Shown: positions 6,471 to 44,680 of the stretch, in pieces
How the letters are laid out: every line of letters begins with the position of its first letter
Numbering within the stretch: the first letter of the stretch is position 1
DNA from: Escherichia phage SusanneMuster_Bas79
Sequence record: PQ850629.1
Strand: one strand, 5' to 3'
DNA length: 46,874 nucleotides
Notes under the pieces: generated by a model
Database searches by the model: none
Seen by the model: only the letters and a program-made list of their open reading frames with translations
Told to the model about the DNA's origin: nothing
Position numbers and translations under genes: made by a program

Positions 6471-7079
6471 TTAATCATCAAGTTTCACGCCGGGAATTTT
6501 GCCTGCTGCGATGGCTTCATAAATTAGCTTAGCCTCATCCTCGCGCTTGTAATCTTGCGCTACCATTTCTAATACCGCGCAGATAGATTCAAGTACAGCC
6601 TCATGCTTCCTTTCTGCTTCTGTGCGAAATGGGATGAAAACATCCTTATTGGATGGGGTTATTGCGTAGTAAATCTCACCAGATGGTCTGATAACTATTT
6701 TTTCGCCATCAAGACCAATAACCTTGACTTTTCCCCATGACGTTCCGTTGCTGATATACTCACATTCACACCCAACTGGCGGCAGTCCTTCTCCGTTCCA
6801 TGCTGAATTTTTCGATGCTGCGAGTGCTGCTTTGTATTGCCAATAGGTTACTATCGACTCCTTATGGTCGGAAGATAATTGCGTAGCCCATTCTTCTCCA
6901 TACCAGAAATGCACAAGGCTATTTCCTGTGTGATGTTTCCATGAGAACCCATCATAGTGTGGGTCATTTGTGTCCCATGCGCACAGCGAACCGTCATTAT
7001 CTTGAGTAATTGACAGCGCGTTTTGAGGCCACCAACCACGCTTAGGCAATTCTTGAACTAACAGGTCGATAAGTTTCAT
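6471..7079 (-). CDS. hypothetical protein (202 aa, Trp-rich)
   Basis: long ORF on minus strand, first of a leftward cassette between head and lysis genes. Confidence 0.5.
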   Translation of the reverse strand: MKLIDLLVQELPKRGWWPQNALSITQDNDGSLCAWDTNDPHYDGFSWKHHTGNSLVHFWYGEEWATQLSSDHKESIVTYWQYKAALAASKNSAWNGEGLPPVGCECEYISNGTSWGKVKVIGLDGEKIVIRPSGEIYYAITPSNKDVFIPFRTEAERKHEAVLESICAVLEMVAQDYKREDEAKLIYEAIAAGKIPGVKLDD

Positions 7080-7091
7080 TTTTGTTCTCCG

Positions 7092-7307
7092 TTAATAATT
7101 TGGCTTTACGTCTTTCATTGTTAGTGGCTTCCATCCACTTGCGATTGCAATATCAATACAATCCTCAAGCGTTTCAGCTTTTATTGGCTCACCAACTTCA
7201 CTATCATCAAATTTTCTCTGTATTTGATAGCCATCTACGACATAAAGAATCTCTACAGAACCATGTAGTGTGTGCATCGACTCAAGCCATTGCAGGTGGT
7301 AGCTCAT
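7092..7307 (-). CDS. hypothetical protein (71 aa)
   Basis: ORF with 4-nt overlap to upstream gene. Confidence 0.4.
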   Translation of the reverse strand: MSYHLQWLESMHTLHGSVEILYVVDGYQIQRKFDDSEVGEPIKAETLEDCIDIAIASGWKPLTMKDVKPNY

Positions 7308-7585
7308 TTTGTTCCCCCTAATGCCTTATTAACCGCAGCACGCGCATTATCTAGAGCGCGGCGCTTACTTGATGTTGTCCAGACTTTGCCGGAGTGGTCG
7401 TCGTAGATTTCCAGTAGTTGCTGGAGTGCTGATAGCATGGCCTTGTTATTATCGTGGCAATACCCAACAGAAAAGCCATGCCATAATTCATCCTTTTCTC
7501 TATCGGTCATGTCGCCAAACCCAACCGAATCAAACCATTCAATAAATAATTGGTACACTTCGCGTTGCGTCATTATCAACCTCAC
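7304..7585 (-). CDS. hypothetical protein (ATG at 7573 gives 89 aa)
   Basis: ORF on minus strand; track start is an alternative codon. Confidence 0.4.
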   Translation of the reverse strand: MRLIMTQREVYQLFIEWFDSVGFGDMTDREKDELWHGFSVGYCHDNNKAMLSALQQLLEIYDDHSGKVWTTSSKRRALDNARAAVNKALGGTK

Positions 7586-9410: not shown

Positions 9411-9716
9411 TCACTCTGCTGGCAATGTTGTTGGCTCATTAACAGATTCCTCAACCGCAGATTCAACGATGCGCACCAGTGAGCACTCAAGATTCGGTGC
9501 ATTGTAATTACCAGCCAGAAACAGAACACTGCCGGTGCTGATTAATACCTGCTTTGCGTTCGCCTGTGACAGATTCTGCACGATGAATTGCGCTGTTTCC
9601 GTGCCGATTTTTAGCACTGCGCTGCCGTCGCTGTTCAGTGATACCAGTTGTGCTGAAGTGTCGGTAATATTGGTGTAGCTCGCGTTTCGTTGCGCGATTG
9701 TTATGTCTGTGAACAT
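9411..9716 (-). CDS. hypothetical protein (101 aa)
   Basis: last gene of a four-gene leftward cassette. Confidence 0.4.
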   Translation of the reverse strand: MFTDITIAQRNASYTNITDTSAQLVSLNSDGSAVLKIGTETAQFIVQNLSQANAKQVLISTGSVLFLAGNYNAPNLECSLVRIVESAVEESVNEPTTLPAE

Positions 9717-9717
9717 A

Positions 9718-9939
9718 TTAGCCTCTTACGTTTAATTTGATTTTTCCATCCACGTCGCGTGATGCACACTCAACAGTGATTGTTAACTTGGTGATCTCTT
9801 CGACGTCTGCATCAAGAATCAAGCGGACGCAACCACCAACTATTCTACCATCCTGATCAACAACGCGAATTTTATCATCGACTCTTTCAACGTGGAGCCA
9901 AACCTTTTCTTCATCACAGCCATTATTGAGAATTGACAT
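9718..9939 (-). CDS. hypothetical protein (73 aa)
   Basis: tightly spaced ORF in leftward cassette. Confidence 0.4.
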   Translation of the reverse strand: MSILNNGCDEEKVWLHVERVDDKIRVVDQDGRIVGGCVRLILDADVEEITKLTITVECASRDVDGKIKLNVRG

Positions 9940-10370
9940 TATTTAATCTCCAGTTCTTTTGCGCGAATTGCGCTGTCAATGATGTCTTGCAAATCCTGTT
10001 CGCGCGATTTATGTCCGCGCTCGCCAGCCTGTAATGCCTTCTTGATTAAGTGCTGCAATGCAGGGTTGGTGACATTCCACGCCATGAGCACATCGTATAC
10101 GTCAACAAATATACCCGGCTTAATCTCGTGCAGGTATTTGTTATCAGCCTCAGGAGCGCCAATGCAATCATTGAGGTCTTGTTCGTCGGTAATTGGCTCG
10201 CGGTATGCAATAACAACATCCCCGCGACCCTCAATCACTTCAATGCGATCAGCATAATATTTGCTTAGATAGAAAATCTCACCAGTCCTTTCTGACTTAA
10301 CTACAAGATAAGCCGCGTTATGGCCAGCAAAATCATCCTCATAACCTTTCAGATATTTCCATTTTTTCAT
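9939..10370 (-). CDS. hypothetical protein (143 aa)
   Basis: ORF with C-terminal HLIKKALQAGERGHKSR segment; family not recognised with confidence. Confidence 0.45.
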   Translation of the reverse strand: MKKWKYLKGYEDDFAGHNAAYLVVKSERTGEIFYLSKYYADRIEVIEGRGDVVIAYREPITDEQDLNDCIGAPEADNKYLHEIKPGIFVDVYDVLMAWNVTNPALQHLIKKALQAGERGHKSREQDLQDIIDSAIRAKELEIK

Positions 10371-15259: not shown

Positions 15260-16330
15260 ATGGAAAAGATTATTTTTACCAAAGACCTGGTAGCCAACTC
15301 CGCAGTGGTGGCTGACCAGTGGAAACATCTGACCATCGACCGCAAGGTGTTCTGCAATGCAGAAGCTGAACTGGCGAAAACATACGGTGTTAACGCCACC
15401 GCACTGGTAACGAAAGATTACTGGCGCGACGTGGATAACGTCACCACCCGCGTTTTCCGCAACGAAGCTGGTCAGGACATGATGGCTGACCTGATGGGCA
15501 TCGCGGCAAACATCAACATCGGAAAGACTGTGGCAATCAGCCGCATTGCTTCCGATGCTGGCAAGGTAGTCCGCACTCTGTCTGGTCAGGAGCCGGAAGA
15601 TTTGGATAAAACTCGCTACGATTACACTGGCGATGTGATCCCAATCTTCAAAACTGGCTACAGCCGAGAATGGCGCGAGCTGCTGGGTATGCAGTCTGAA
15701 GGCTTCGACCCACTGCTGGACGATCAGGCCAACGTCACCTTTAACCTGCGTTCCGACATGGCGCAGTATCTGCTGACCGGCGACCAGACTCTGAACGTGA
15801 ACGGCGTTTACACTGGCTATGGTATCACCAACCACCCGAACACTGTTCAGGTTAACCTGAATGCTTCCGGCGGCCTTAATATCGACCTGCAAACTGCAAC
15901 GCCAGACGAAATCGTGACCTTCTTCAATCAGGATTTCCAGGCTATTCTGGATGCGCAGAACGTATTTGAGCAGGTGACTCTGTGGGTTTCTCCGGCAGTG
16001 CGTCGTAGCTTCATGCGTCCGTATTCTGATGCGGCAGGCTTCAAAGGCGGCACTGTTGAGCAGTACATCACGCAGTTTGGCAATGGTCGCATCGGTAAGA
16101 TTGGCACCAACTTCCTGCTGACTGGTAACCATTTCGTTGGCTACGTTCGCAACGACATGTACATCCGTCCGCGTGTTGCTCAGCCAGTTTCCACCTACGC
16201 GGCAGCTCGTGCCAACCCGCACGATAACTTTAACTTCCTCGTGTGGTCTGCTTTTGGTTTGCAGATTCGCAAGGACGCCACTGGCAAGTCCAGAGTGTTC
16301 AACGGCTACGGTACGCAAACTCCGGTGTAA
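15260..16330 (+). CDS. major capsid protein
   Basis: 356 aa, follows scaffold and decoration-like genes, followed by terminator. Confidence 0.7.
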   Translation: MEKIIFTKDLVANSAVVADQWKHLTIDRKVFCNAEAELAKTYGVNATALVTKDYWRDVDNVTTRVFRNEAGQDMMADLMGIAANINIGKTVAISRIASDAGKVVRTLSGQEPEDLDKTRYDYTGDVIPIFKTGYSREWRELLGMQSEGFDPLLDDQANVTFNLRSDMAQYLLTGDQTLNVNGVYTGYGITNHPNTVQVNLNASGGLNIDLQTATPDEIVTFFNQDFQAILDAQNVFEQVTLWVSPAVRRSFMRPYSDAAGFKGGTVEQYITQFGNGRIGKIGTNFLLTGNHFVGYVRNDMYIRPRVAQPVSTYAAARANPHDNFNFLVWSAFGLQIRKDATGKSRVFNGYGTQTPV

Positions 16331-16331
16331 T

Positions 16332-16357
16332 AAAAAAAGGGGCGAAAGCCCCTTTAT
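16332..16357. terminator. hairpin terminator
   Basis: A7, stem GGGGC / GCCCC with GAAA loop, then TTTAT; reads as a stronger terminator on the minus strand. Confidence 0.5.
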
Positions 16358-16373
16358 GAATTTGAGGTGAATA

Positions 16374-16571
16374 ATGGCTAAATACGAAGTGATCGCTCGC
16401 GGAATCTTTGTTAAAGAGAAGGGCAAGATTCGTGAATTGCAGCTTGGCGAGGTGATTACCGAGCCAGACGAGCATCTGCTACCAAAACTGCGCGTTATGC
16501 CAGAACTGGAAAAGACTTTCGAAGTCGCAACCCCGCAACAAAAGACGACAAAGAAAAAGAAAGCAGAGTAA
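16374..16571 (+). CDS. hypothetical protein (65 aa, Lys-rich C-terminus)
   Basis: ORF between two terminators, downstream of capsid gene. Confidence 0.4.
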   Translation: MAKYEVIARGIFVKEKGKIRELQLGEVITEPDEHLLPKLRVMPELEKTFEVATPQQKTTKKKKAE

Positions 16572-16600
16572 ACAAAACCCGCATCATGCGGGTTTTTTAT
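16572..16600. terminator. bidirectional rho-independent terminator
   Basis: AAAACCCGC-ATCAT-GCGGGTTTTTTATT; separates convergent capsid operon and leftward accessory operon. Confidence 0.65.
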
Positions 16601-16602
16601 TG

Positions 16603-17142
16603 CTACAGACGCATCGGCATAACAACAATCTTAGCAGTCTCGCCAGATGGCGCATTAAGACAGCAAACTGCGGCATTTGTGTTTCCATTAAGTTCAAATT
16701 TGATACAACTGAATTTAGGATTAAACAGCTTCGCCACTTTCTCAACGTCAACCAGATATCCAGCATTGAAGCCAATTTCCTCTGCTGGCAAGGTCTGCTT
16801 CGGAATGACGCGATCAATATCAGGGAATCGCCCGTCAATCTCTTCACAGATACCAGCACCAACCATAACGCCAGCTTCATCATGATACGTTGCAATTTTC
16901 GACTTTGTATCAATGATGGCGTAGTCATAGCGTTTTGTTGGTGACTTGCCAATCTTGATAATCACATTTTCTGTAAGATTATTATCATGGTTTCCACCAA
17001 TAAATGCGCGATGACCGTCAGTTGATGCAATACGACCATCAGGCATAAAGCAAATGCCATTCAGGTAATATCGCACATCGTTGCGCGCCTGAAATATTAA
17101 TGCTGATTCAAGTAATAGTTTGCCGATTTTTAGTTTCATCAC
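16603..17142 (-). CDS. truncated DnaN-like (DNA polymerase III beta clamp-like) protein
   Basis: 179 aa with DVRYYLNG, TDGHR, DGRFPD-x3-V-PK, EIGFN-x-YL-DV and C-terminal VVMPMRL, matching hallmark segments of bacterial beta-clamp domain II and the C-terminal end of domain III; ATG at 17139 is the likely start. Confidence 0.7.
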   Translation of the reverse strand: MMKLKIGKLLLESALIFQARNDVRYYLNGICFMPDGRIASTDGHRAFIGGNHDNNLTENVIIKIGKSPTKRYDYAIIDTKSKIATYHDEAGVMVGAGICEEIDGRFPDIDRVIPKQTLPAEEIGFNAGYLVDVEKVAKLFNPKFSCIKFELNGNTNAAVCCLNAPSGETAKIVVMPMRL

Positions 17143-17312
17143 TTCACCTTAATCATATGCTGTTTTGCAACCTTCAGGCACTCCTCAAAAATGCCACCCT
17201 TCTTTGCGCTCTGATTGCGCTTGTAATACTGAACTGCCGCATCAATTGCCATCTGGTCGATTTCAGGCAGTTTGGTACGTAGTTGTTTTTCAATGAATTG
17301 TTCTGGTGTCAT
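17139..17312 (-). CDS. hypothetical small protein (57 aa)
   Basis: hand-translated MTPEQFIEKQLRTKLPEIDQMAID...; overlaps stop of methyltransferase and start of DnaN-like gene. Confidence 0.35.
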   Translation of the reverse strand: MTPEQFIEKQLRTKLPEIDQMAIDAAVQYYKRNQSAKKGGIFEECLKVAKQHMIKVK

Positions 17313-18112
17313 TAAACGGACCTCATGAATGCTTTAATGAATTCTGCTGCGACTTGTGGAACTATGGCATTGCCATAACCGCGCAATCGTCCCACTCTTG
17401 CGGATACCCCATGAGTTGCCTCGCAAAATCCGCCTGGTATGACTCTAGTTTCCTTATCTGCTCCATGGTTGGGTTTCCATGAATCCCATAAACATGAAGC
17501 CACATCTGGCGATAAAGAGTATCGTTCCTGAATTTTCCGTCCTTTCTGTAAAATGTCTTGCTGAGATCCCCGTAATCCTTCCATCCTCGCGCCGTTGGTG
17601 TCGCCCATCCTCGCGCCAAAGATGATTCTTTTCCTTTCCTGTGGAGAGCCGACGCTGCAAGCTGGCAATACTGACGCCCCGCAGGCGTAGCCTTTGTCTT
17701 CCAGGTTAAGGAATACAAAATCGAGCCAGTGCTTCCCAATTGCTGCTGCAACCTGCTCTCCAAACAGCAATTCAGGCTTGCACTCTCTGATGAGCCTGAG
17801 AAATGCTGGGGCAAGGTGTCGATCGTCGTCAAATCCGAGAGACTTACCGGCAACGCTAAACGGCTGGCAAGGTGGTGATCCTGTCCAGAGTCGAGTGCTT
17901 TCTGGTATTCCTGCCAGCTGGAGTGCAAGGGGCCACCCTCCGATTCCGGCAAAGAAGTGACACTGTGTAAATCCTTCCAGGTCTGAAGGGGTGACTTCGG
18001 TGATTGATCGTTCATCGACATATCCGTAAGGAATTAGTTTATTGTTAATTAATTCACGCAGCCATGCCGCTGCGCCCTTGTCCCACTCATTGTAATAGTG
18101 GACCATCATCAC
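17312..18112 (-). CDS. DNA (cytosine-5)-methyltransferase
   Basis: motif I FAGIGGW, motif IV PPCQPFS, motif VI FGEQV, motif X GNAIVPQV; compact 266 aa. Confidence 0.85.
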   Translation of the reverse strand: MMMVHYYNEWDKGAAAWLRELINNKLIPYGYVDERSITEVTPSDLEGFTQCHFFAGIGGWPLALQLAGIPESTRLWTGSPPCQPFSVAGKSLGFDDDRHLAPAFLRLIRECKPELLFGEQVAAAIGKHWLDFVFLNLEDKGYACGASVLPACSVGSPQERKRIIFGARMGDTNGARMEGLRGSQQDILQKGRKIQERYSLSPDVASCLWDSWKPNHGADKETRVIPGGFCEATHGVSARVGRLRGYGNAIVPQVAAEFIKAFMRSV

Positions 18113-18918
18113 ATCTTCTCCAGAATTGCCATCACCTCGTGAATATCAGCAACAGGAATCTGGATAAACTCCTCATTCTCTGCCACTACATGACCAGCAG
18201 GAAGAATAACGTGGTCAGCTGGCTTCAGTAACTCAATCAGTCGGTCTACTGGCTTAATCTTTTTCGACTTAAGCACCTTCGCCGTTACCTTATCCTTGCC
18301 TTGCGCCTTCGCTTCTTCGACTGCCTCGTCGATAACTTTAACCGCATCATCGCCATGTTCGCGAGTTACTGCTACGGCATTTGCATAGCTGATTTGCCCT
18401 GCACTGATTCGCGCTTTTACTTCGGCTGGCACATCACCCAGTGACAGGTGCATCTGCACGTCAGAAACTGAGCGCCCTACCTTCTTGGCGATTTCCTCGT
18501 TGGTCCAGCCAAAACCCTTCAGTCGCGTGTAAGCCTTTGCGCGTTCAAACGGGTCAAGCTGCTTACCCTGACTGGACGACACCATGAAGGCGATTTTATC
18601 TGCTTCGCCTCCTGTGAAATCCTTGCACTCAATACGAACAATTGGTGCGCCACGCTCAATGGCACGCAACGCTCCGAGATAGCGATGCTGACCATCAAGA
18701 ATGCGGATTCCCTTCTCGTCTGGAATAACTGTTAATGCTGGCAATGGCTGACCTGACTCCCAGCACTGCGCGAAATACTCCACATGCTGCTCATCTGCTT
18801 CGCGGATGTTGTATCCTGGTTCCAGATAGATTTGCTCAACTGGCACGAGATATGTCTTGTTTACCGCGATTCCGTTGCGCGTTTCTTTGTCTGAATAGAT
18901 TTTGCTTAGTGTTTTCAT
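18109..18918 (-). CDS. ParB/Srx-domain protein (ParB-like nuclease domain)
   Basis: N-terminal ILDGQHRYLGALRA (ParB box GxxRxxA), Lys/Ala-rich linker, C-terminal domain; 4-nt overlap with methyltransferase gene. Confidence 0.7.
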   Translation of the reverse strand: MKTLSKIYSDKETRNGIAVNKTYLVPVEQIYLEPGYNIREADEQHVEYFAQCWESGQPLPALTVIPDEKGIRILDGQHRYLGALRAIERGAPIVRIECKDFTGGEADKIAFMVSSSQGKQLDPFERAKAYTRLKGFGWTNEEIAKKVGRSVSDVQMHLSLGDVPAEVKARISAGQISYANAVAVTREHGDDAVKVIDEAVEEAKAQGKDKVTAKVLKSKKIKPVDRLIELLKPADHVILPAGHVVAENEEFIQIPVADIHEVMAILEKM

Positions 18919-18921
18919 TGT

Positions 18922-19563
18922 TTACTCCTCATCACCGGAATTAGCAATATCGTAAAACTGACCGTATGTTATCTGCTTAAAGTTATCAGGTATCGTTACC
19001 TGTCCATGACCTTCACCTTTTGTATTTGGCACGGCAAAAATCAGGCAATCATCCTTTTGCGGGTGTTTGCCGCCATGAGTAGACAGCATTGCAAAACCAA
19101 ATCCGCGACCAGATTGCTCTCCGATTCCGGTGCGTGCGATGCCATAATGATTAACAATATAGTCTTTCCATTCTGGCAATAACTTTAATTTCTCGTTTGC
19201 CTCGCGCATCACCGCGTCCAGATTTTTGTTGTATTCCCGCCCGTCTTTTGTGTTTCCTTTTCCGCGAGCCACGATTACACGCTGACCATCCAAGAACTCT
19301 TCGCGCTTTATTGTCACAGGGCACGGAAATTCAAACTGCTTACTCCACACAAAGCTCTCAAGTAAGCCACCACCGACTGCTCCCCAGCTACGTGTCGTGG
19401 TGAAAGCGATAGCGCCAACCTTTTTCATGGCGTCGCCAAGAACTTCATTGCGGCGCTTTTGGATGTCATCATATGCGTCAATAACTTTCTTAACATCAGC
19501 ACCTTCAACCATGTAATAATCATAATGTTTTGCATTGCTGCTCATCTTCATCACCTCTAGCAT
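18922..19563 (-). CDS. hypothetical protein (about 207-213 aa)
   Basis: first gene of leftward operon; Gly-rich with acidic C-terminus; family not recognised. Confidence 0.5.
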   Translation of the reverse strand: MLEVMKMSSNAKHYDYYMVEGADVKKVIDAYDDIQKRRNEVLGDAMKKVGAIAFTTTRSWGAVGGGLLESFVWSKQFEFPCPVTIKREEFLDGQRVIVARGKGNTKDGREYNKNLDAVMREANEKLKLLPEWKDYIVNHYGIARTGIGEQSGRGFGFAMLSTHGGKHPQKDDCLIFAVPNTKGEGHGQVTIPDNFKQITYGQFYDIANSGDEE

Positions 19564-19564
19564 T

Positions 19565-19660
19565 TATTGTTGTTTCTACGTCACTAACTATAAACGCCAC
19601 ATCAATCTACGTCAACAGGAATATGCTAAAATCATGCTAATCAAAAAACAGGAGATTTGA
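19565..19660. promoter_or_regulatory. divergent promoter region with two conserved boxes
   Basis: TTTCTACGTCAC (19573-19584), CAATCTACGTCAAC (19603-19616), extended -10 TGCTAAAAT (19624-19632), GGAG before ATG 19663. Confidence 0.45.
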
Positions 19661-19662
19661 GC

Positions 19663-19782
19663 ATGGGTTCAACAAACGGTCCTTCTCGTTCGCGCGCTAC
19701 TGGAAATACCAAAACTGGCGGAAAAACTGGCGCAGTTAAGCCAAACGGTTCCACCCGTTCACCATCGCGCGGGAAGAAATAA
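19663..19782 (+). CDS. small highly basic Gly/Ser/Thr-rich protein (39 aa)
   Basis: hand-translated MGSTNGPSRSRATGNTKTGGKTGAVKPNGSTRSPSRGKK; good RBS; TAATG overlap with next gene. Confidence 0.35.
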   Translation: MGSTNGPSRSRATGNTKTGGKTGAVKPNGSTRSPSRGKK

Positions 19783-20222
19783 TGTTCGGCGCAGACATTG
19801 CCATCATGATCATGTATGTGCTGGGTTTTGCCTGCACGGGCATGGTTGCGTTTCTGGTGTTCATTCCGGCAATGGCGATGTCTGTGTATCTTGGATGGGT
19901 GCTTGCTGATTCATTTCCCGCCGAATATCTGTATTACCTTGCGCAGTCTATGGTCTGGCTATTCCCGGCTATTGCACTGCGCAAAAGTACAAAAATGGCG
20001 CTCTGCGTGCTGACGATGAGCCTTTACGAATGGCTGGTAGCGATAGAGTCATTCGTATGGGAATTTATCACGCCTGTAGAAACGCCGCTTCATGCGCAGT
20101 ACGCATTTATTATTATCGGCATCCATCTGTTCATCCTTTCCATCACTTTTAAATGGGGCGGCGAAATTGGACATTATTCTTGGCGTGGTCGCCATTGTTT
20201 TTTCGCTGATTCAAGTCTATAA
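19782..20222 (+). CDS. integral membrane protein (about 4 TM segments)
   Basis: 146 aa, strongly hydrophobic. Confidence 0.45.
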   Translation: MFGADIAIMIMYVLGFACTGMVAFLVFIPAMAMSVYLGWVLADSFPAEYLYYLAQSMVWLFPAIALRKSTKMALCVLTMSLYEWLVAIESFVWEFITPVETPLHAQYAFIIIGIHLFILSITFKWGGEIGHYSWRGRHCFFADSSL

Positions 20223-22831: not shown

Positions 22832-23548
22832 ATGGCTATTTGTGCAAATGATAAAGGCGTTCTGGTCGGTCGCATGACCAGACTGTTCCTTGCTGAAGGG
22901 TGCGGAGACGCAGTTCCGGAGGCGGGAGACTGGAAGTATTTAGGCTCAACCACCAGTAAGGGTGTTGACTACTCGCCGCAGACTACCACGTCGGAGGCAG
23001 ATACCACTGGCGGTTTTGTTTCCACTCTCGTTACCAGCTCTGATATGACCATCAGCGCAGAGGTGGAAATCCGCAAGAATGACCCGAGCGATGAGTTTGG
23101 CTTCCATCGTCTGGTTGAGATTTACGCCACCGAACTGAAAGCTCGTCGCCAGCCTTCCTTGTGGGTGCGTCAGGTGACTGGTGCGACTATCGTTACGGCG
23201 TATTGCAACATCACCAGCATCAGCTACGAAGGTGGTACGAACGATATCGTTACTGGCAGCCTTGAGTTCAAGGTTTACGATTCTGATAGCGTTACCGTCG
23301 AAAGCCTTGAGCCTCTGGCATTCACTACAGACCTGCCATCAACTGGCACGGCTGGCAACCCGTTAACTGTTGCTGTTGAAGGTGGTGTCGCTCCTTACAC
23401 TTATGTATGGCGCAAAGATGGCGTGGTTGTCGGCAGCGAATCAGGCGCGTCTCTGGCAAGCCCTACCGCTGGCGTGTATACCGTCACGGTGACTGATTCG
23501 TCTACTGACCCTGAAATTATTATCAGCACGGCTTGCACTGTGTCCTGA
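22832..23548 (+). CDS. major tail protein with C-terminal Ig-like domain
   Basis: 238 aa; Thr/Ser/Val-rich C-terminal segment (TVAVEGGVAPYTYVWRKDG...YTVTVTD) typical of Ig-like decoration domains; followed by strong terminator. Confidence 0.7.
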   Translation: MAICANDKGVLVGRMTRLFLAEGCGDAVPEAGDWKYLGSTTSKGVDYSPQTTTSEADTTGGFVSTLVTSSDMTISAEVEIRKNDPSDEFGFHRLVEIYATELKARRQPSLWVRQVTGATIVTAYCNITSISYEGGTNDIVTGSLEFKVYDSDSVTVESLEPLAFTTDLPSTGTAGNPLTVAVEGGVAPYTYVWRKDGVVVGSESGASLASPTAGVYTVTVTDSSTDPEIIISTACTVS

Positions 23549-23551
23549 TAA

Positions 23552-23582
23552 ATAAAAAAGCCCCGGAAGGGGCTTGTTTTAT
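23552..23582. terminator. bidirectional rho-independent terminator
   Basis: AATAAAAAAGCCCCGGAAGGGGCTTGTTTTATT. Confidence 0.6.
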
Positions 23583-23845
23583 TCTTGCGGTGGCTCTGGT
23601 AGTGGCATCCAGTGGGTGGCATCACTAATCCAGCCATATTCATTAGTTTGAGGGTGATTACCGCGCCCATCTCCGTATTTAAAACTCTCCATAAAGCCAT
23701 AATGTTTATCACCATTAATGTTCACAAAACCGTAATAAGCAGGAATAACGCCGATCTCACACGTAACCAGTAAGGGAAAACTAGTTCTCCAGTTTAGCTC
23801 GCCAATTACAGGCATCCTCTCACTGCACTTAATCCACTGGATCAT
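23579..23845 (-). CDS. DUF551-like protein
   Basis: 88 aa; N-terminal WIKCSERMP and C-terminal THWMPLPEPP resemble DUF551 hallmarks. Confidence 0.6.
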   Translation of the reverse strand: MIQWIKCSERMPVIGELNWRTSFPLLVTCEIGVIPAYYGFVNINGDKHYGFMESFKYGDGRGNHPQTNEYGWISDATHWMPLPEPPQE

Positions 23846-23985
23846 ATCACCTTATCCTCATCAAAAATCACACCAATCACACGAAGCAAGTCTTTCGCCA
23901 TGCGTTCAGCTTCTTCATAGTCGTAACCCGCATCGACATACAAATCGGTGTAGAAAATCAGGTCGGATTTTGTTTGTTCGTTCAT
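23842..23985 (-). CDS. hypothetical small acidic protein (47 aa)
   Basis: hand-translated MNEQTKSDLIFYTDLYVDAGYDYEEAERMAKDLL...; 4-nt overlaps on both sides. Confidence 0.3.
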   Translation of the reverse strand: MNEQTKSDLIFYTDLYVDAGYDYEEAERMAKDLLRVIGVIFDEDKVI

Positions 23986-24188
23986 TTTTTATCGTCGCTC
24001 TTAACTAATGCCCAAACAAGCGCGGCGACCCAGCCAATAAAACTCCATCCAACGAGAATATTCAGTACGCAGATTGCAGTCGTGTTTACGTGCTTGCGTT
24101 GCAGAGCCACAAAAGATGGCAGGAGGTACGCAAATATCACCAACCCAACAAAAAACAACAAAATAACGACGTCCATAGCTAACCTCAA
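23982..24188 (-). CDS. superinfection-immunity-type small membrane protein
   Basis: 68 aa; YLLPSFVALQRKHVNTTAICVLNILVGWSFIGWVAALVWAL matches the pattern of the small Imm-type superinfection immunity membrane protein family. Confidence 0.7.
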   Translation of the reverse strand: MRLAMDVVILLFFVGLVIFAYLLPSFVALQRKHVNTTAICVLNILVGWSFIGWVAALVWALVKSDDKK

Positions 24189-24208
24189 CTGTTAATAACT
24201 TGTTTATA

Positions 24209-24502
24209 TTACATGCCATTCTTTTCACACAAAGCAACAGCCACATCACGCAATTGCTCTTTAGTCATATCCTTGCGTGCATAAACCATTTCTACGATAG
24301 CAAGGCCGATTATTTCTGCTGATTCGTTGTTTTTTGCAGAACCTTTTACCACCACTTCCGCAAGATTCTTGCTGATACCGTTATCGCGAACATCAGCAGT
24401 GTTCATGGCGATTTCTCCAATGTTTTTGCACATATCGGAAGTCGCACTGGCGGCAAAAGAAGAAGCCAATAGTACAGATGCAATCAACATTTTAATTTTC
24501 AT
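24209..24502 (-). CDS. secreted small protein (signal peptide), function unknown
   Basis: 97 aa; N-terminal MKIKMLIASVLLASSFAASA resembles a Sec signal peptide; two Cys. Confidence 0.5.
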   Translation of the reverse strand: MKIKMLIASVLLASSFAASATSDMCKNIGEIAMNTADVRDNGISKNLAEVVVKGSAKNNESAEIIGLAIVEMVYARKDMTKEQLRDVAVALCEKNGM

Positions 24503-41745: not shown

Positions 41746-42048
41746 TGCTTTGATGTTAACTTTTATTGCGAACACTTCCACCGGGTCAGGACCGAAATGT
41801 GGGTGGGTGATGGTCTTAACCGTCCATCCATCGTATGGGATATCAATACGCCTGGATTTATCGTCCTTCTTTGGATATCCTTTTGTGATAATTAACCTTT
41901 CGTACTTCCTTCCAATCTGTCCGCTATCTTTAAAGTTAATAAGGCGCTTCTTCCAGTAGTCATTAAAAAGGCGATACTCTTCCGTTTTATCTCCGCGAAT
42001 CATGGCATCGAAGTATTCACCTTTGACGGCAAGTTGCAGGTTAGCCAT
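41743..42048 (-). CDS. ASCH/PUA-like domain protein (putative)
   Basis: MANLQLAVKGEYFDAMIRGDKTEEYR resembles the N-terminal motif of ASCH/DUF3850-type proteins; ATG at 42048. Confidence 0.45.
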   Translation of the reverse strand: MANLQLAVKGEYFDAMIRGDKTEEYRLFNDYWKKRLINFKDSGQIGRKYERLIITKGYPKKDDKSRRIDIPYDGWTVKTITHPHFGPDPVEVFAIKVNIKA

Positions 42049-42304
42049 TATTTCCCTCCAGAATCCAAACTGAATTACCAATACGACTGTTATTTAAATC
42101 CTTTGACACGCGGCCATCCTTACAAAGAGAAATCAGAACCTTCCGTAACTTCGCTGCTGTCCATTCATCATCAGGAAATTCATTCACCATTGATAGACGC
42201 AAACTCCACGTAGCCACTGAGAACTTACGAAAAATTCCAAGTTTCTCCTCCTCAATGGATTTTCTCTTTCTCATCACATATAAAACCTTATCCTTCACAT
42301 CCAT
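42041..42304 (-). CDS. hypothetical protein (87 aa)
   Basis: ORF track entry. Confidence 0.35.
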   Translation of the reverse strand: MDVKDKVLYVMRKRKSIEEEKLGIFRKFSVATWSLRLSMVNEFPDDEWTAAKLRKVLISLCKDGRVSKDLNNSRIGNSVWILEGNNG

Positions 42305-42314
42305 TTCCTTACCC

Positions 42315-42506
42315 TCACTTAATCATCATCTTTGAAATATCAACGTGACCAACACAAAATCTGTGCCAGTAATCATCAAGCATGTGGTAATTAGAGCGAA
42401 TCCATACTTTGTTAATCCGGCTCCAGAAAAACCACGTCGAATAACCATGCGGCCTGAAATGCCATAAACCTTCTGAGCGACAAATTTCGCCTGATATTGT
42501 TCTCAT
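42315..42506 (-). CDS. hypothetical protein (63 aa)
   Basis: ORF track entry, Trp-rich. Confidence 0.3.
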   Translation of the reverse strand: MRTISGEICRSEGLWHFRPHGYSTWFFWSRINKVWIRSNYHMLDDYWHRFCVGHVDISKMMIK

Positions 42507-44059
42507 TTCAACCTCGGATTTATGTGAACAGTATTCCCGATAAATACGCAGTAACCATCCTCTTCAAGTGATGGCAATACACTTGACCTGAGTCGGTCAT
42601 AAATTTTAGGTATCCCTTTGAATGGTCGTACGTTTTTAAGTGAATCATAAAGCCACTTCACCGTTACGTTTGTTTTTCCTTTCTGAGCGGCAGAGCGTAG
42701 CTTTTCGGCAACAACATCAAATTCAGAACGCTCACCAGCATATCCATTTGATTCCACGGCGTCGGTGAATGTTTTTGTTAGTGCGTCATAAACACTGATG
42801 GCGCGACTAATTTCATTTTCACCGATAATCTTTGATTGCTTTCCTCCATCACACCAGTTTTCAGCAGCGTGAAATATTGCTGCCAGACGTATTATTTGCT
42901 TATCAGCTTTACCCATCGCGCCACGAAGAAGGACGTGATCCCACTTACCGCCGGGAAGGAAGTTTTTCTCCCACTGATTTCGTAACAGGCCAATCATTCT
43001 TGCTGAGTCATTGTGAAGCGTCAGTTTTGTTTTTTCTGCTGACACAACATTATGTATAAATCTTGCATATTCCGACCTCAAGCTATCTGGCATTGGCTTG
43101 CTTACAGGGCAATCATTAACCATGTCCCAGTGTTCGCGATAGCCAAGCATTGATTGCTCTCGCAACATCAGGAAACGTTCAGAAAGACCGTTCCCCCTGT
43201 CGCCAGCGGCAAGAATGGCATCAATACTTTCATCCTGCGCAATCACACTTATGTTTCCAAGCACGTAACCAGATGAAACGCCACGACCAACACGAGCAGA
43301 ACCAATGAATCCGCCATCCCAGCCCTTCAGGATGACTTCGGCGTTTGCCTTTCCACCTTCTTTTCCGTAAGAGAGGCCAAGACATGTGTTAAGGACGCTT
43401 GCCTCGTCACTTATCAGATTAAAAAAACCACCTTCATGAATGGCCTGATGCTGGACAGCCTCCGGAGTTGCGTCCGTCAGTGGATATGTGATCGTATAAA
43501 GCTCCTCCAGCTTCTCCTTTTCGCGAGCAATATCATCGCCGATTAGTGCCTTTGCATTCTGATTACTGGCCTCTTTGTATGCCTTCATCAACTCTTCAAT
43601 GCGAAGATTTATTTTTATGATCTGCTTTTCCATCTTTTTGGAAAGGTTGTCATATTCAATCTTCACCGGATTCATGTGCATTGAGTTGATGGCAGTTTTC
43701 CCTGCTGATGGAGGCTGAGAAGTAACCACGTAAAGAGAAACTGGAAGCTCTGAATGGTAATACTCAACGCTAAAGTTTCTCGTCATTGCGCTGGCAACGC
43801 ACCCAAGTAAATGCATGAACGATGTATTTATTGGGAACTGAACAGCACGAGCTGCAGCGATTGCATAACGAGACAGCAAATCTGTTCTGTGCTCACTGGT
43901 CAGTTCTGTTTCTGAGTACGTTACATCACGCTCCTTACCTTCCTTGATATCCAGCCACATATTTGAGCTTGGTGTCATGCCATGATGGAAGGCGACGCGA
44001 GCAGGAGATACTTTCAATTCCCTTGCTTCGTTGAAGATATCTTGAGCTGTGATCATCAT
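42503..44059 (-). CDS. large replication-module protein, possible origin-associated initiator/ATPase
   Basis: 518 aa; P-loop-like PPSAGKT; located next to the iteron-flanked AT-rich region; family not confidently recognised. Confidence 0.4.
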   Translation of the reverse strand: MMITAQDIFNEARELKVSPARVAFHHGMTPSSNMWLDIKEGKERDVTYSETELTSEHRTDLLSRYAIAAARAVQFPINTSFMHLLGCVASAMTRNFSVEYYHSELPVSLYVVTSQPPSAGKTAINSMHMNPVKIEYDNLSKKMEKQIIKINLRIEELMKAYKEASNQNAKALIGDDIAREKEKLEELYTITYPLTDATPEAVQHQAIHEGGFFNLISDEASVLNTCLGLSYGKEGGKANAEVILKGWDGGFIGSARVGRGVSSGYVLGNISVIAQDESIDAILAAGDRGNGLSERFLMLREQSMLGYREHWDMVNDCPVSKPMPDSLRSEYARFIHNVVSAEKTKLTLHNDSARMIGLLRNQWEKNFLPGGKWDHVLLRGAMGKADKQIIRLAAIFHAAENWCDGGKQSKIIGENEISRAISVYDALTKTFTDAVESNGYAGERSEFDVVAEKLRSAAQKGKTNVTVKWLYDSLKNVRPFKGIPKIYDRLRSSVLPSLEEDGYCVFIGNTVHINPRLK

Positions 44060-44295
44060 GAAATCCTTTTTACGTAAACCATATCTTTGTCAGGGTATCC
44101 AACCTTTGTTGAGAATTTCATGCCTTCATTCCTGCGCATGAAATAGTTTAATGCGTTCCTCAGGCTTGCAATACCTCCAAACCTCTTCGAGTCAATCATC
44201 ACAGTCTCCCCTACTGAAACCGCCGACAACCCAGAAAGAGCTGCATTCTTTTTGCCATACTTATCAAGTTTCACAAAATCCTCCAACAGCAACAA
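44056..44295 (-). CDS. hypothetical small protein (start uncertain; track start is TTG)
   Basis: ORF adjacent to iteron region. Confidence 0.35.
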   Translation of the reverse strand: MLLLEDFVKLDKYGKKNAALSGLSAVSVGETVMIDSKRFGGIASLRNALNYFMRRNEGMKFSTKVGYPDKDMVYVKRIS

Positions 44296-44348
44296 ATTAT
44301 GATTGAATCATATCATAAGTATTGAATCATGCAACATCAAATACGACT

Positions 44349-44663
44349 CACGTGGGTAACGTGGGGCAGCCGTGGGGAACATCACCTTCCCCACGAACTT
44401 TTACTCTAAGTATATGTAATATAATATAATTATTATTATTTGGGTTAATGGGTAATATTATTATTCATATTATAGATAGTAATTAACATAATATTAACAA
44501 ATGGATTATTTGAATATATTTATAAGGGGATGGGTATGAAATCTGCCCCTTTTTACCCACGAAAAATAAAAACATTCAAATCAATAATTTACGATGAAAA
44601 ACGTGGGGCAACCAACCTTCCCCACGACCTGCCCCACGAGCAAAAATTTACCCCACGGGCACG
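44349..44663. repeat. iteron-flanked AT-rich region (candidate replication origin / control region)
   Basis: about 9 copies of CCCCACG / CGTGGGG (4 left, 5 right, both orientations) flanking a roughly 120-bp strongly AT-rich core (44400-44520). Confidence 0.6.
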
Positions 44664-44680
44664 TTTTTAACGCATCCCTG

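What the first reader, a model, noticed from the sequence alone, without database searches (positions are those of the whole stretch)
18922..19563. Unrecognised 213-aa protein leading the leftward accessory operon
It is the promoter-proximal gene of the operon, Gly-rich with an acidic C-terminal tip (ANSGDEE), and I cannot place it in any family from the sequence. Promoter-proximal genes of anti-restriction and host-takeover operons are often the functionally important novelty.
Basis: inference. Interest (0 to 1): 0.4.

Follow-up and report, generated by a model that had tools for sequence, protein, structure and literature searches.

The report
EaC-family early accessory gene cassette
The "unrecognised" protein is a 207-aa member of the EaC family first named in Salmonella phage P22; the family is catalogued but its function is unknown, and here it sits as a swappable single-gene cassette under an early promoter of a virulent E. 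coli phage.

Summary
The ORF is real and is the first gene after the promoter in a five-gene leftward operon. Its true start is almost certainly the third ATG (19545), giving 207 aa rather than 213.

It can be placed in a family. It is 71% identical to P22 EaC (gp25), matches PHROG 2260, and is distantly linked to Pfam DUF5420.

The window is the complete genome of Escherichia phage SusanneMuster (Bas79). Its near-twin Bas77 has exactly this gene replaced, from start codon to the next gene's start codon, by two unrelated small genes. Only 17 of 155 related phage records carry EaC at this site.

In temperate phages EaC usually sits just upstream of xis-int. Relatives are also found on about 530 plasmids, mostly conjugative Klebsiella plasmids.

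The AlphaFold model is confident (pLDDT 84) but resembles no solved structure. Published plating data show Bas79 is as restriction-sensitive as its EaC-less relatives, so a classical anti-restriction role is unlikely.

The acidic C-terminal tip is not conserved, and its codons carry the ribosome-binding site of the next gene.

Best guess, with low confidence: a non-enzymatic binding protein used by mobile elements early after entry. This is a new member of a known, uncharacterised family, of modest interest.

The parts
19587..19615 (-). sigma-70-like early promoter TTGACG-N17-TATAGT driving the leftward operon
   Evidence: 10/12 matches, the best site in 16300-20000. The same sequence is conserved in Bas77 upstream of a different first gene.
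19551..19557 (-). Shine-Dalgarno GAGGTGA, 5 nt before the ATG at 19545
   Evidence: Sequence read. The leader and RBS are shared with Bas77, where they serve an unrelated gene at the same spacing (+/-1 nt).
18922..19545 (-). EaC-family gene, 207 aa (the longest ORF extends to 19563, 213 aa)
   Evidence: 71% identity to P22 EaC and 92-95% to EaC of Akira-like phages. PHROG 2260 E=3e-57. AF2 pLDDT 84.
18919..19546 (-). Exchangeable cassette: the segment with no counterpart in the near-twin phage Bas77, which carries two unrelated small genes there
   Evidence: homology to Bas77 (98.7-99.4%) stops at 18918 and resumes at 19547. One search gives the same gap at whole-genome scale.
18925..18930 (-). 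GAGGAG, Shine-Dalgarno of the downstream ParB-like gene, embedded in the last EaC codons (D-E-E)
   Evidence: Sequence read (ggtgatGAGGAGtaaacaATG). The tail is not conserved in the family.
18109..18918 (-). ParB-like protein (269 aa), second gene of the operon
   Evidence: Pfam HTH_ParB 2.5e-11 and KorB. PHROG 1033 3e-90.
17312..18112 (-). C5 cytosine DNA methyltransferase (266 aa), third gene
   Evidence: Pfam PF00145 1e-21. PHROG 363 3e-75.
17139..17312 (-). 57-aa gene of unknown function, fourth gene
   Evidence: PHROG 4439 4e-23.
16603..17142 (-). 179-aa beta-sliding-clamp-like protein, last gene of the operon
   Evidence: TIGR00663 dnaN 3e-9. Weak Pfam DNA_pol3_beta_2/3 hits. PHROG 947 processivity factor 1e-10; the PHROG 3007 label 'RusA-like' is probably a misnomer.
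16574..16596 (.). GC-rich hairpin between the convergent genes; likely terminator closing the operon
   Evidence: 10-bp stem reported on both strands. The T-run is good only on the + strand.

Best explanation
Shown:
- The gene encodes a 207-aa soluble single-domain alpha/beta protein of the EaC family (prototype P22 gp25; PHROG 2260; distantly related to Pfam DUF5420).
- It is an optional, horizontally exchanged single-gene cassette placed directly under a host-type early promoter of a virulent Skatevirus-like phage (Bas79).
- The family has no fixed partner gene. It occurs in early operons of lambdoid, P2-like, Vibrio and Aeromonas phages and on large conjugative Klebsiella plasmids.

Inferred (low confidence):
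- It works alone and early after the element's DNA enters the cell.
- It is a binding protein, not an enzyme.
- It binds a phosphate-bearing ligand or a host protein. The proposed binding site is the most conserved stretch: the basic glycine-rich strand-loop-helix R94-G-K-G-N-T-K-x-G-R, the conserved aromatics Y10, Y194 and Y198, and the invariant D199.
- By doing so it neutralises a host function that hinders establishment of incoming mobile DNA. That would make it a counter-defence or host-interference factor whose target is not one of the restriction systems tested so far.
For: Identity:
- tblastn gives 71% identity to P22 EaC (E=9e-95) and 90-95% to EaC of Akira, KFS-SE2 and HC6.
- PHROG 2260 E=3e-57.
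- 35 of 52 family representatives hit DUF5420 weakly.

Cassette and dispensability:
- The boundaries against Bas77 are exact.
- Only 17 of 155 related phage records carry EaC.
- Alternative occupants of the slot include an acidic 'anti-restriction'-labelled protein, DUF551 and other ORFans.

Early expression:
- There is a near-consensus sigma-70 promoter upstream.
- The gene lies in the PL operon in P22 and other prophages.
- It follows the replication genes in a P2-like prophage, Vibrio H188 and Aeromonas AeroV_348.

No fixed partner:
- Neighbours differ across 80+ loci.

Broad use by mobile elements:
- 531 plasmids carry a homologue, 498 of them conjugative.

No enzyme signature:
- There are no Pfam, NCBIfam or PADLOC hits.
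- The conserved residues are mostly Gly, Pro, aromatic and basic, with a single invariant acid, D199.

Fold:
- The model is confident (pLDDT 84, pTM 0.73).
- The only good matches are uncharacterised phage proteins.
Against: - No direct functional evidence exists.
[quoted passage not shown] It is unaffected by RexAB, PifA and Fun/Z, as they are. So no counter-defence phenotype has been seen.
- The phages compared are not isogenic.
- On the one Klebsiella plasmid examined, the gene lies at least 87 kb from mobI/MobH, so it is not in the classical leading region where plasmid anti-defence genes cluster.
- Its frequent position next to helicase, primase, recombination and methylase genes fits a DNA-metabolism role equally well.
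- 'Non-enzymatic' is argued from absence of motifs, which is weak for a fold with no characterised relative.
Confidence: 0.3

Rival explanations
1. DNA replication or recombination accessory factor. EaC binds single-stranded nucleic acid through an RRM-like beta-sheet and assists or protects phage or plasmid DNA intermediates.
For: - Recurrent neighbours are DNA-transaction genes: ParB-like, C5-MTase and clamp-like here.
- It sits directly after the Toprim primase in a P2-like prophage.
- It sits after helicase and an RNaseH-like gene in Vibrio H188.
- It sits between helicase and PAPS-reductase/HD/C5-MTase in Aeromonas AeroV_348.
- It lies upstream of annealing-protein/SSB genes in lambdoid loci.
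- DnaC and methylases are nearby on Klebsiella plasmids.
- R147-GFGFAML resembles the RNP1 motif, and there is a conserved aromatic on strand 1 (Y10).
Against: - It is absent from 89% of sister phages that replicate well.
- The FGF aromatics are confined to the enterobacterial clade.
- Family pI is near neutral (median 6.2).
- Contexts in Vibrio 1.046.O/PS17B.1 and 207E29-2 are not replication modules.
Confidence: 0.25
2. Modulator of the lysis-lysogeny decision or of excision, like the exo-xis region genes of lambda. On this reading the copy in the virulent phage is a carried-over passenger.
For: - In 68 of 80 IMG/VR loci the gene lies at the prophage end; in nearly all of them it is immediately followed by xis-int modules of several different families.
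- In the P22 record, a C1-activated promoter inside eaC drives an antisense RNA across its 5' half.
- Exo-xis genes at the same relative position in lambda influence lysogenisation and induction (PMC3824215, PMC8614690).
- An eaC-eaE deletion prophage gave no viable P22 (PMC11016777).
Against: - It is present and well conserved (91-95% aa) in virulent phages that have no integrase or repressor.
- It is present on conjugative plasmids.
- In other phages it sits far from int, or in genomes without one.
- The P22 deletion removed several genes and regulatory sites, so it is uninformative for eaC alone.
Confidence: 0.1
3. Classical anti-restriction protein (DNA mimic or direct inhibitor of restriction enzymes).
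For: - It shares a cassette slot with an acidic 86-aa protein labelled anti-restriction (PHROG 14587).
- It is co-operonic with a C5-methyltransferase.
Against: - pI is 6.5 with net charge about -2, so it is not a DNA mimic.
- There is no ArdA-, Ocr- or KlcA-type hit in Pfam, PDB or the fold searches.
- Bas79 is restricted 10-fold to 10^7-fold by type I, II and III systems, the same as EaC-less Bas77, Bas78 and Bas80.
Confidence: 0.05
4. Enzyme with a new fold acting on a nucleotide or on DNA (for example a signal-degrading or base-modifying enzyme). The Gly-rich loops would form a nucleotide pocket.
For: - Three Gly-rich loops are conserved, plus a strand-loop-helix basic motif reminiscent of phosphate-binding loops.
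- It lies next to DNA-modification genes in several phages.
Against: - There is no Walker A motif (the sequence is RGKGNTK, not GxxxxGK[ST]).
- There is only one invariant acidic residue and no conserved His, Cys or Ser triad across the family.
- There is no structural match to any enzyme.
Confidence: 0.12
5. Exclusion or defence gene (or toxin) that the element uses against competing phages.
For: - Accessory slots in phages also carry exclusion genes; a superinfection-immunity gene sits in another leftward islet of this phage group.
- In the P2-like prophage it lies between the replication gene and the portal gene, a region known from the literature to hold defence genes. That last point is from my own knowledge and was not tested here.
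Against: - No PADLOC hit.
- In prophages it is inside the repressed early operon, not an independently expressed moron.
- It is carried by virulent phages.
Confidence: 0.06

Closest known systems
P22 EaC (gp25, YP_063720) and 'Eac protein' of Enterobacterales prophages
   Same: - Homologous over the full length: 71% identity, E=9e-95.
- Same size, about 205 aa.
- Same motifs: HYDYY, R32, ARGKGNTKxGR, HYGIxRTGIG, FAIPN, TYGQFYD.
- Early-operon gene.
- Function unknown in both.
   Different: - In P22 it is the last gene of the PL operon, directly before xis-int, and is overlapped by the C1-dependent antisense aI transcript.
- Here it is the first gene of an operon in a virulent phage with no integrase.
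Pfam DUF5420 (PF17457)
   Same: A distantly related family of about 185-aa proteins of unknown function. 35 of 52 EaC-superfamily representatives hit it (best E=3e-8), and NCBI names some close homologues 'DUF5420 family protein'.
   Different: The window protein itself gives no hit even at E<=1. The five relatives scanned singly that matched scored below the 26-bit gathering cut-off. The link is transitive, not direct.
Exo-xis region accessory proteins of lambda and Stx phages (Ea8.5, Ea22, Orf60a/61/63)
   Same: Positional analogues: small, non-essential early genes between the recombination genes and xis in the PL operon, which influence phage development (PMC3824215, PMC8614690). In most prophages EaC occupies the slot just before xis.
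   Different: No sequence relationship was detected (no Pfam or PHROG cross-hits). EaC also occurs outside lambdoid phages and on plasmids.
PHROG 14587 acidic 'anti-restriction protein' (Bas77_0047, KFS-SE2 gp78)
   Same: Occupies the same cassette slot under the same promoter and RBS. It can replace EaC (Bas77) or precede it (KFS-SE2).
   Different: Unrelated sequence: 86 aa and strongly acidic. EaC is 207 aa with near-neutral pI.
RRM / quasi-RRM ferredoxin-like domains
   Different: The scores are at noise level and cover only a third of the protein. The aromatic RNP residues are not conserved across the family.

Membership tests
EaC family (P22 gp25 / PHROG 2260) | Full-length sequence homology to P22 EaC | tested here: met
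   tblastn gives 70.9% identity over residues 7-209, E=9e-95. phmmer finds 130 homologue clusters, many named 'Eac protein'.
EaC family (P22 gp25 / PHROG 2260) | Match to the PHROG 2260 profile over its whole length | tested here: met
   E=3e-57, profile positions 2-191 of 192. All 52 superfamily representatives match it.
EaC family (P22 gp25 / PHROG 2260) | Family-wide conserved residues (Y10, R32, G95, K100, P124, P173, P186, Y194, G195, Y198, D199) and a length of about 200 aa | tested here: met
   All are present in the window protein (alignments A1 and A2).
Pfam DUF5420 (PF17457) | Score at or above the curated gathering threshold (26 bits) | tested here: not met
   No hit at E<=0.1 or E<=1 for the window protein. 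Relatives hit weakly at 19-25 bits. It is therefore related to, but not a formal member of, the Pfam family.
DNA-mimic anti-restriction proteins (Ocr/ArdA type) | Strongly acidic surface or very low pI | tested here: not met
   pI is 6.5. The family median pI is 6.2 and median net charge is -2.
DNA-mimic anti-restriction proteins (Ocr/ArdA type) | Sequence or fold similarity to a known anti-restriction protein | tested here: not met
DNA-mimic anti-restriction proteins (Ocr/ArdA type) | Relief of type I restriction in vivo | tested here: inconclusive
   Published EOP values for Bas79 are 0.03-0.1 on EcoKI and 1e-4 to 6e-4 on EcoCFT_I, the same as EaC-less Bas77, Bas78 and Bas80. This is indirect because the phages are not isogenic.
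P-loop NTPases | Walker A motif GxxxxGK[ST] and a P-loop fold | tested here: not met
   The loop reads A-R-G-K-G-N-T-K-D-G-R. There are no P-loop Pfam hits and no structural match.
RRM-like nucleic-acid-binding domains | beta-alpha-beta-beta-alpha-beta fold with conserved RNP1 and RNP2 aromatics | tested here: inconclusive
Known anti-phage defence systems (PADLOC) | Match to any defence-protein profile | tested here: not met
   0 families at E<=0.1.

The most novel reading that the evidence does not exclude
EaC is the founding member of a new-fold class of counter-defence or host-interference proteins shared by phages and large conjugative plasmids. On this reading it works by sequestering a phosphate-bearing ligand (a nucleotide signal or a DNA end) or by blocking a conserved host DNA-surveillance protein. 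One weak lead is that Bas79 is the most sensitive of Bas77-80 to the P2 Old system (EOP about 0.001-0.07, against 0.12-0.5 for its near-twin Bas77). Old classically responds to phage interference with RecBCD; that point is from my own knowledge and was not tested here.
Probability: 0.2. Interest if true: 0.65.

Novelty: new member of a known kind. Interest (0 to 1): 0.3.

Why it matters
On its own this is a routine identification of a hypothetical protein as a member of a named but uncharacterised family.

It has some value as a target for experiments, for four reasons:
- The family has been unexplained since the P22 'Ea' proteins were named, and no solved structure resembles it.
- It is used by very different mobile elements: lambdoid, P2-like, virulent sipho-, Vibrio and Aeromonas phages, and about 500 conjugative Klebsiella plasmids.
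- In the BASEL model collection it exists as a clean natural cassette swap. Bas79 has EaC while Bas77 has other genes at the same site, with identical promoter and RBS.
- That makes a deletion or swap experiment straightforward.

Tried and rejected
- **Direct profile scans.** Pfam, NCBIfam and PADLOC gave no hits for the protein.
- **PDB sequence searches.** Searches with the single sequence and with a 52-sequence profile gave only noise, E>=0.07.
- **Literature.** 'EaC'/P22, 'Eac protein', DUF5420 and Akiravirus searches found no functional study. The P22 eaC-eaE deletion result is uninformative for eaC alone.
- **Plasmid leading-region idea.** On the one plasmid examined, the gene is at least 87 kb from mobI/MobH, so this is not supported. 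Pfam scans of its plasmid neighbours were uninformative.
- **Natural experiment, Bas79 versus Bas77/78/80.** There is no anti-restriction signal. The Old difference cannot be assigned to EaC, because the genomes differ in nine segments, including a different helicase allele and several ORFans.
- **P-loop and DNA-mimic readings.** Both rejected on motif and charge.
- **Fusion proteins as functional clues.** The Tle3-EaC chimeras carry only an EaC fragment and look like rearrangement products.
- **Technical failures.** The search for related loci with the wide alignment A2 failed for lack of a conserved stretch. A second profile search of the 5.8-billion set returned mostly the same close homologues.

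Full report
**What is at the coordinates.** The six-frame ORF list shows an ORF at 18922..19563 on the minus strand, 213 codons. Four genes follow it on the same strand, with 3-nt gaps or 1-4-nt overlaps:
- a ParB-like protein (18109-18918; Pfam HTH_ParB 2.5e-11, PHROG 1033 3e-90);
- a C5 cytosine methyltransferase (17312-18112; PF00145 1e-21);
- a 57-aa ORFan (17139-17312);
- a 179-aa beta-clamp-like protein (16603-17142; TIGR00663 3e-9).

The best sigma-70-like site in 16300-20000 is TTGACG-17-TATAGT at 19615..19587 on the minus strand (10/12 matches). A 10-bp GC-rich hairpin at 16574-16596 closes the unit. The description 'promoter-proximal gene of a leftward operon' is therefore correct.

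**Start codon and C-terminal tip.** The sequence reads ...aaATGctaGAGGTGAtgaagATGagcagc.... The third ATG (19545) has a GAGGTGA Shine-Dalgarno 5 nt upstream.
- Homologues are 203-209 aa and start MS(D/S).
- The annotated Akira and KFS-SE2 genes are 624 nt.
- In phage Bas77 the same leader and RBS are followed by an unrelated gene whose ATG is at the equivalent position, and there the upstream ATG is out of frame.

The protein is therefore 207 aa (23.2 kDa, pI 6.5).

The acidic tip (..SGDEE) is not conserved in the family. Its last codons, GAT GAG GAG TAA, contain the GAGGAG ribosome-binding site of the ParB-like gene, whose ATG lies 6 nt further on. The unrelated Bas77 cassette protein also ends in GDEE. 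The tip is best read as a translational-coupling by-product.

Glycine is 11.6% of residues, which is a family trait (median 11%). Conserved glycines sit in the WG..GG, RGKGN.K.G and GxG..GxG stretches. Two of these fall in low-confidence blocks of the model.

**Family placement.** The protein can be placed.
- tblastn against 50,697 phage records finds 61 with a homologue. Identity is 90-95% in Akira/Skate-like phages, several of them annotated 'EaC protein', and 70.9% (E=9e-95) to P22 eaC.
- PHROG 2260 matches end to end (3e-57).
- A search of 5.8 billion proteins gives 130 clusters, many named 'Eac protein' or 'DUF5420 family protein'.
- An exhaustive HMMER scan of 1.84 billion cluster representatives finds only 79 related clusters, so the family is small.
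- Pfam DUF5420 is not hit by the window protein. It is hit weakly by 35 of 52 representatives (best E=3e-8). This is a sister relationship, not formal membership.
- I found no functional study of EaC or DUF5420.

**Which phage this is.** The window is 99% identical over long stretches to Escherichia phage ClaudiaMuster (Bas77). Its length, 46,874 bp, equals that listed for SusanneMuster (Bas79, PQ850629) in the BASEL completion paper (PMC11990801, supplementary file 2). Bas77's annotation has no integrase or repressor, so this is a virulent Skatevirus-like siphovirus.

**The gene is a cassette.**
- Against Bas77, homology (98.7-99.4%) runs up to 18918, the first base of the ParB-like start codon. 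It resumes at 19547, 1 nt before the EaC start codon.
- In between, Bas77 carries a strongly acidic 86-aa protein (PHROG 14587, labelled 'anti-restriction') and a 63-aa ORFan.
- Of 155 related phage records that match the ParB-to-lipoprotein interval, only 17 contain EaC.
- Other occupants of the slot are a 114-aa ORFan (Bas78), a 49-aa ORF (C1), DUF551 (IME207) and anti-restriction-like protein plus two ORFans (64795_sal3). In KFS-SE2 the anti-restriction-like gene comes first and EaC second.

EaC is therefore dispensable and exchangeable, and it is not always promoter-proximal.

**Contexts elsewhere.**
- In 68 of 80 IMG/VR loci the gene lies at the prophage end. In nearly all of them it is followed directly by xis and int, which belong to at least five different xis/int family combinations, as in P22.
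- In three other lambdoid loci it lies early in the PL-like operon, upstream of recombination genes or two genes after an HTH_ParB protein.
- In a P2-like prophage it follows the Toprim replication gene.
- In Vibrio phage H188 it follows a helicase and an RNaseH-like gene.
- In Aeromonas AeroV_348 it sits between a helicase and PAPS-reductase/HD/C5-methylase genes.
- In other Vibrio phages it is in small islets among tail or lysis genes.
- Homologues at 45-47% identity occur on 531 of 72,556 PLSDB plasmids, of which 498 are conjugative and 497 are from Klebsiella.
- On those plasmids it lies in a conserved yfaE-x-EaC-... operon near a RelE/ParE pair, orphan methylases, a type II RM system and DnaC.
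- In the one plasmid examined, that operon is at least 87 kb from mobI/MobH, so it is not in the classical leading region.

No partner gene is constant. The common denominator is early or establishment-phase expression in mobile DNA.

**Structure.** AlphaFold2 with a 37-sequence alignment gives pLDDT 84.3 and pTM 0.73. The model is a single alpha/beta domain with two long helices (16-43, 100-120).
- Foldseek against PDB (entries to April 2026) gives nothing below E=0.02 and TM no higher than 0.21.
- BFVD returns only uncharacterised phage proteins.
- Across the whole family the conserved positions are Y10, R32, A45, G95, K100, G102, N106, N117, P124, G150, G159, P173, P186, Y194, G195, Y198 and D199.
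- The strongest motif is the basic Gly-rich strand-loop-helix ARGKGNTKxGRxFNK. It is not a Walker A motif.
- There is no conserved catalytic-looking His, Cys or Ser set.
- pI is near neutral across the family, which rules out a DNA mimic.

**Phenotypic evidence.** The evidence is indirect. BASEL S1 Data give efficiency of plating (EOP) for Bas79:

| System | Bas79 EOP |
|---|---|
| EcoKI | 0.03-0.1 |
| EcoCFT_I | 1e-4 to 6e-4 |
| EcoRI | 6e-6 to 7e-5 |
| EcoRV | 1e-7 to 1e-6 |
| EcoCFT_II | 1e-6 to 2e-5 |
| EcoPI | 1.5e-5 to 2e-4 |

These values are indistinguishable from EaC-less Bas78 and Bas80, and from the block I take to be Bas77. The only difference is the P2 Old system:

| Phage | EOP on Old |
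|---|---|
| Bas79 | 0.001-0.07 |
| Bas77 | 0.12-0.5 |
| Bas78 | 0.02-0.37 |
| Bas80 | about 1 |

Bas77 and Bas79 differ in nine segments, including a different helicase allele and several ORFans. The Old difference therefore cannot be assigned to EaC. The data argue against a general anti-restriction role and are otherwise silent.

**Interpretation.** What is shown: this is an EaC-family early accessory protein carried as a mobile single-gene cassette. What it does remains unknown.
- I rank first (about 0.3) a stand-alone, non-enzymatic binding protein that helps incoming mobile DNA by neutralising a host function.
- Second (about 0.25) is a DNA replication or recombination accessory that binds single-stranded nucleic acid.
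- A lysogeny or excision role (about 0.1) is disfavoured because the gene is maintained in virulent phages and plasmids.
- A classical anti-restriction role (about 0.05) is disfavoured by the charge, the fold and the plating data.

**Verdict.** The finding is a real gene correctly flagged as uncharacterised. It is a new member of a known, named family, not an unplaceable novelty. Two of the features that drew attention, the acidic tip and the promoter-proximal position, are incidental. Interest is modest (0.3). Its main value is the clean natural swap pair in a model phage collection, for a family that has no structure or function assigned.

Noticed in passing
window 1-46874: The window is a complete phage genome. 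Its length (46,874 bp) and its similarity to Bas77, Bas78 and Bas80 identify it as Escherichia phage SusanneMuster (Bas79, PQ850629), a virulent O16-dependent Skatevirus-like siphovirus.
   Followed up: yes
L101 9001-9621 (NZ_CP142972.1 224671-225291) and 530 other plasmids: EaC homologues at 45-47% identity sit on about 530 PLSDB plasmids, 498 conjugative and almost all from Klebsiella. They lie in a conserved yfaE-72aa-EaC-68aa-102aa(CxxC)-220aa-97aa operon near a RelE/ParE pair, orphan methylases, a type II RM system and DnaC. In the one plasmid examined, the operon is at least 87 kb from mobI/MobH.
   Followed up: partly
window 16603-17142 (-): The last gene of the operon is a half-size beta-sliding-clamp-like protein (TIGR00663 3e-9; PHROG 947 'processivity factor'). 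The best PHROG (3007) and the Bas77 and Akira annotations call it 'RusA-like Holliday junction resolvase', which is probably a mislabel.
   Followed up: partly
window 17312-18918 (-): A ParB-like protein (HTH_ParB/KorB, weak DGQHR hit) is translationally coupled to a short (266-aa) C5 methyltransferase. The methylase is absent in Akira, where an 83-aa ORFan replaces it, so this is a second variable slot in the same operon.
   Followed up: no
L001 6115-6375 (Bas77_0047): The alternative cassette gene encodes a very acidic 86-aa protein (PHROG 14587, 'anti-restriction') that also ends in GDEE. Bas77 is nevertheless restricted by EcoKI and the other RM systems much as Bas79 is, so the label is unverified.
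   Followed up: partly
L003 3964-4486 (P22 NC_002371): In the P22 record a C1-activated promoter inside eaC drives the antisense 'aI' RNA across the 5' half of the gene.
   Followed up: no
P0183 / P0213 (Klebsiella, 350-373 aa): These are chimeric ORFs with an N-terminal T6SS Tle3 phospholipase domain followed by an EaC fragment (residues ~88-168). They were seen on 37 contigs up to 366 kb and are probably a rearrangement on the large plasmids.
   Followed up: partly
window 16574-16596: A perfect 10-bp GC-rich hairpin lies between the convergent gene 16374-16571 (+) and the leftward operon. It is reported as terminator-like on both strands.
   Followed up: no
window 6471-7585, 9411-10370, 16603-19563, 23401-24502: Several short leftward gene islets interrupt the rightward structural and lysis genes. 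In Bas77 the counterpart of the last islet includes a 'superinfection immunity' gene, and a 'Lar-like restriction alleviation' gene lies in a rightward early block. The genome architecture looks like a series of accessory slots.
   Followed up: no
window 41747-44678 and eight smaller segments: Bas79 and Bas77 differ in nine non-homologous segments. These include a different allele of the 518-aa DNA helicase (PHROG 2373) and several ORFans, so the two phages are not isogenic for phenotype comparisons.
   Followed up: partly
BASEL S1 Data (PMC11990801, supplementary file 8): Sensitivity to the P2 Old system varies about 100-fold among Bas77-80. Bas79 is the most sensitive and Bas80 is resistant. 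The determinant is unknown.
   Followed up: no
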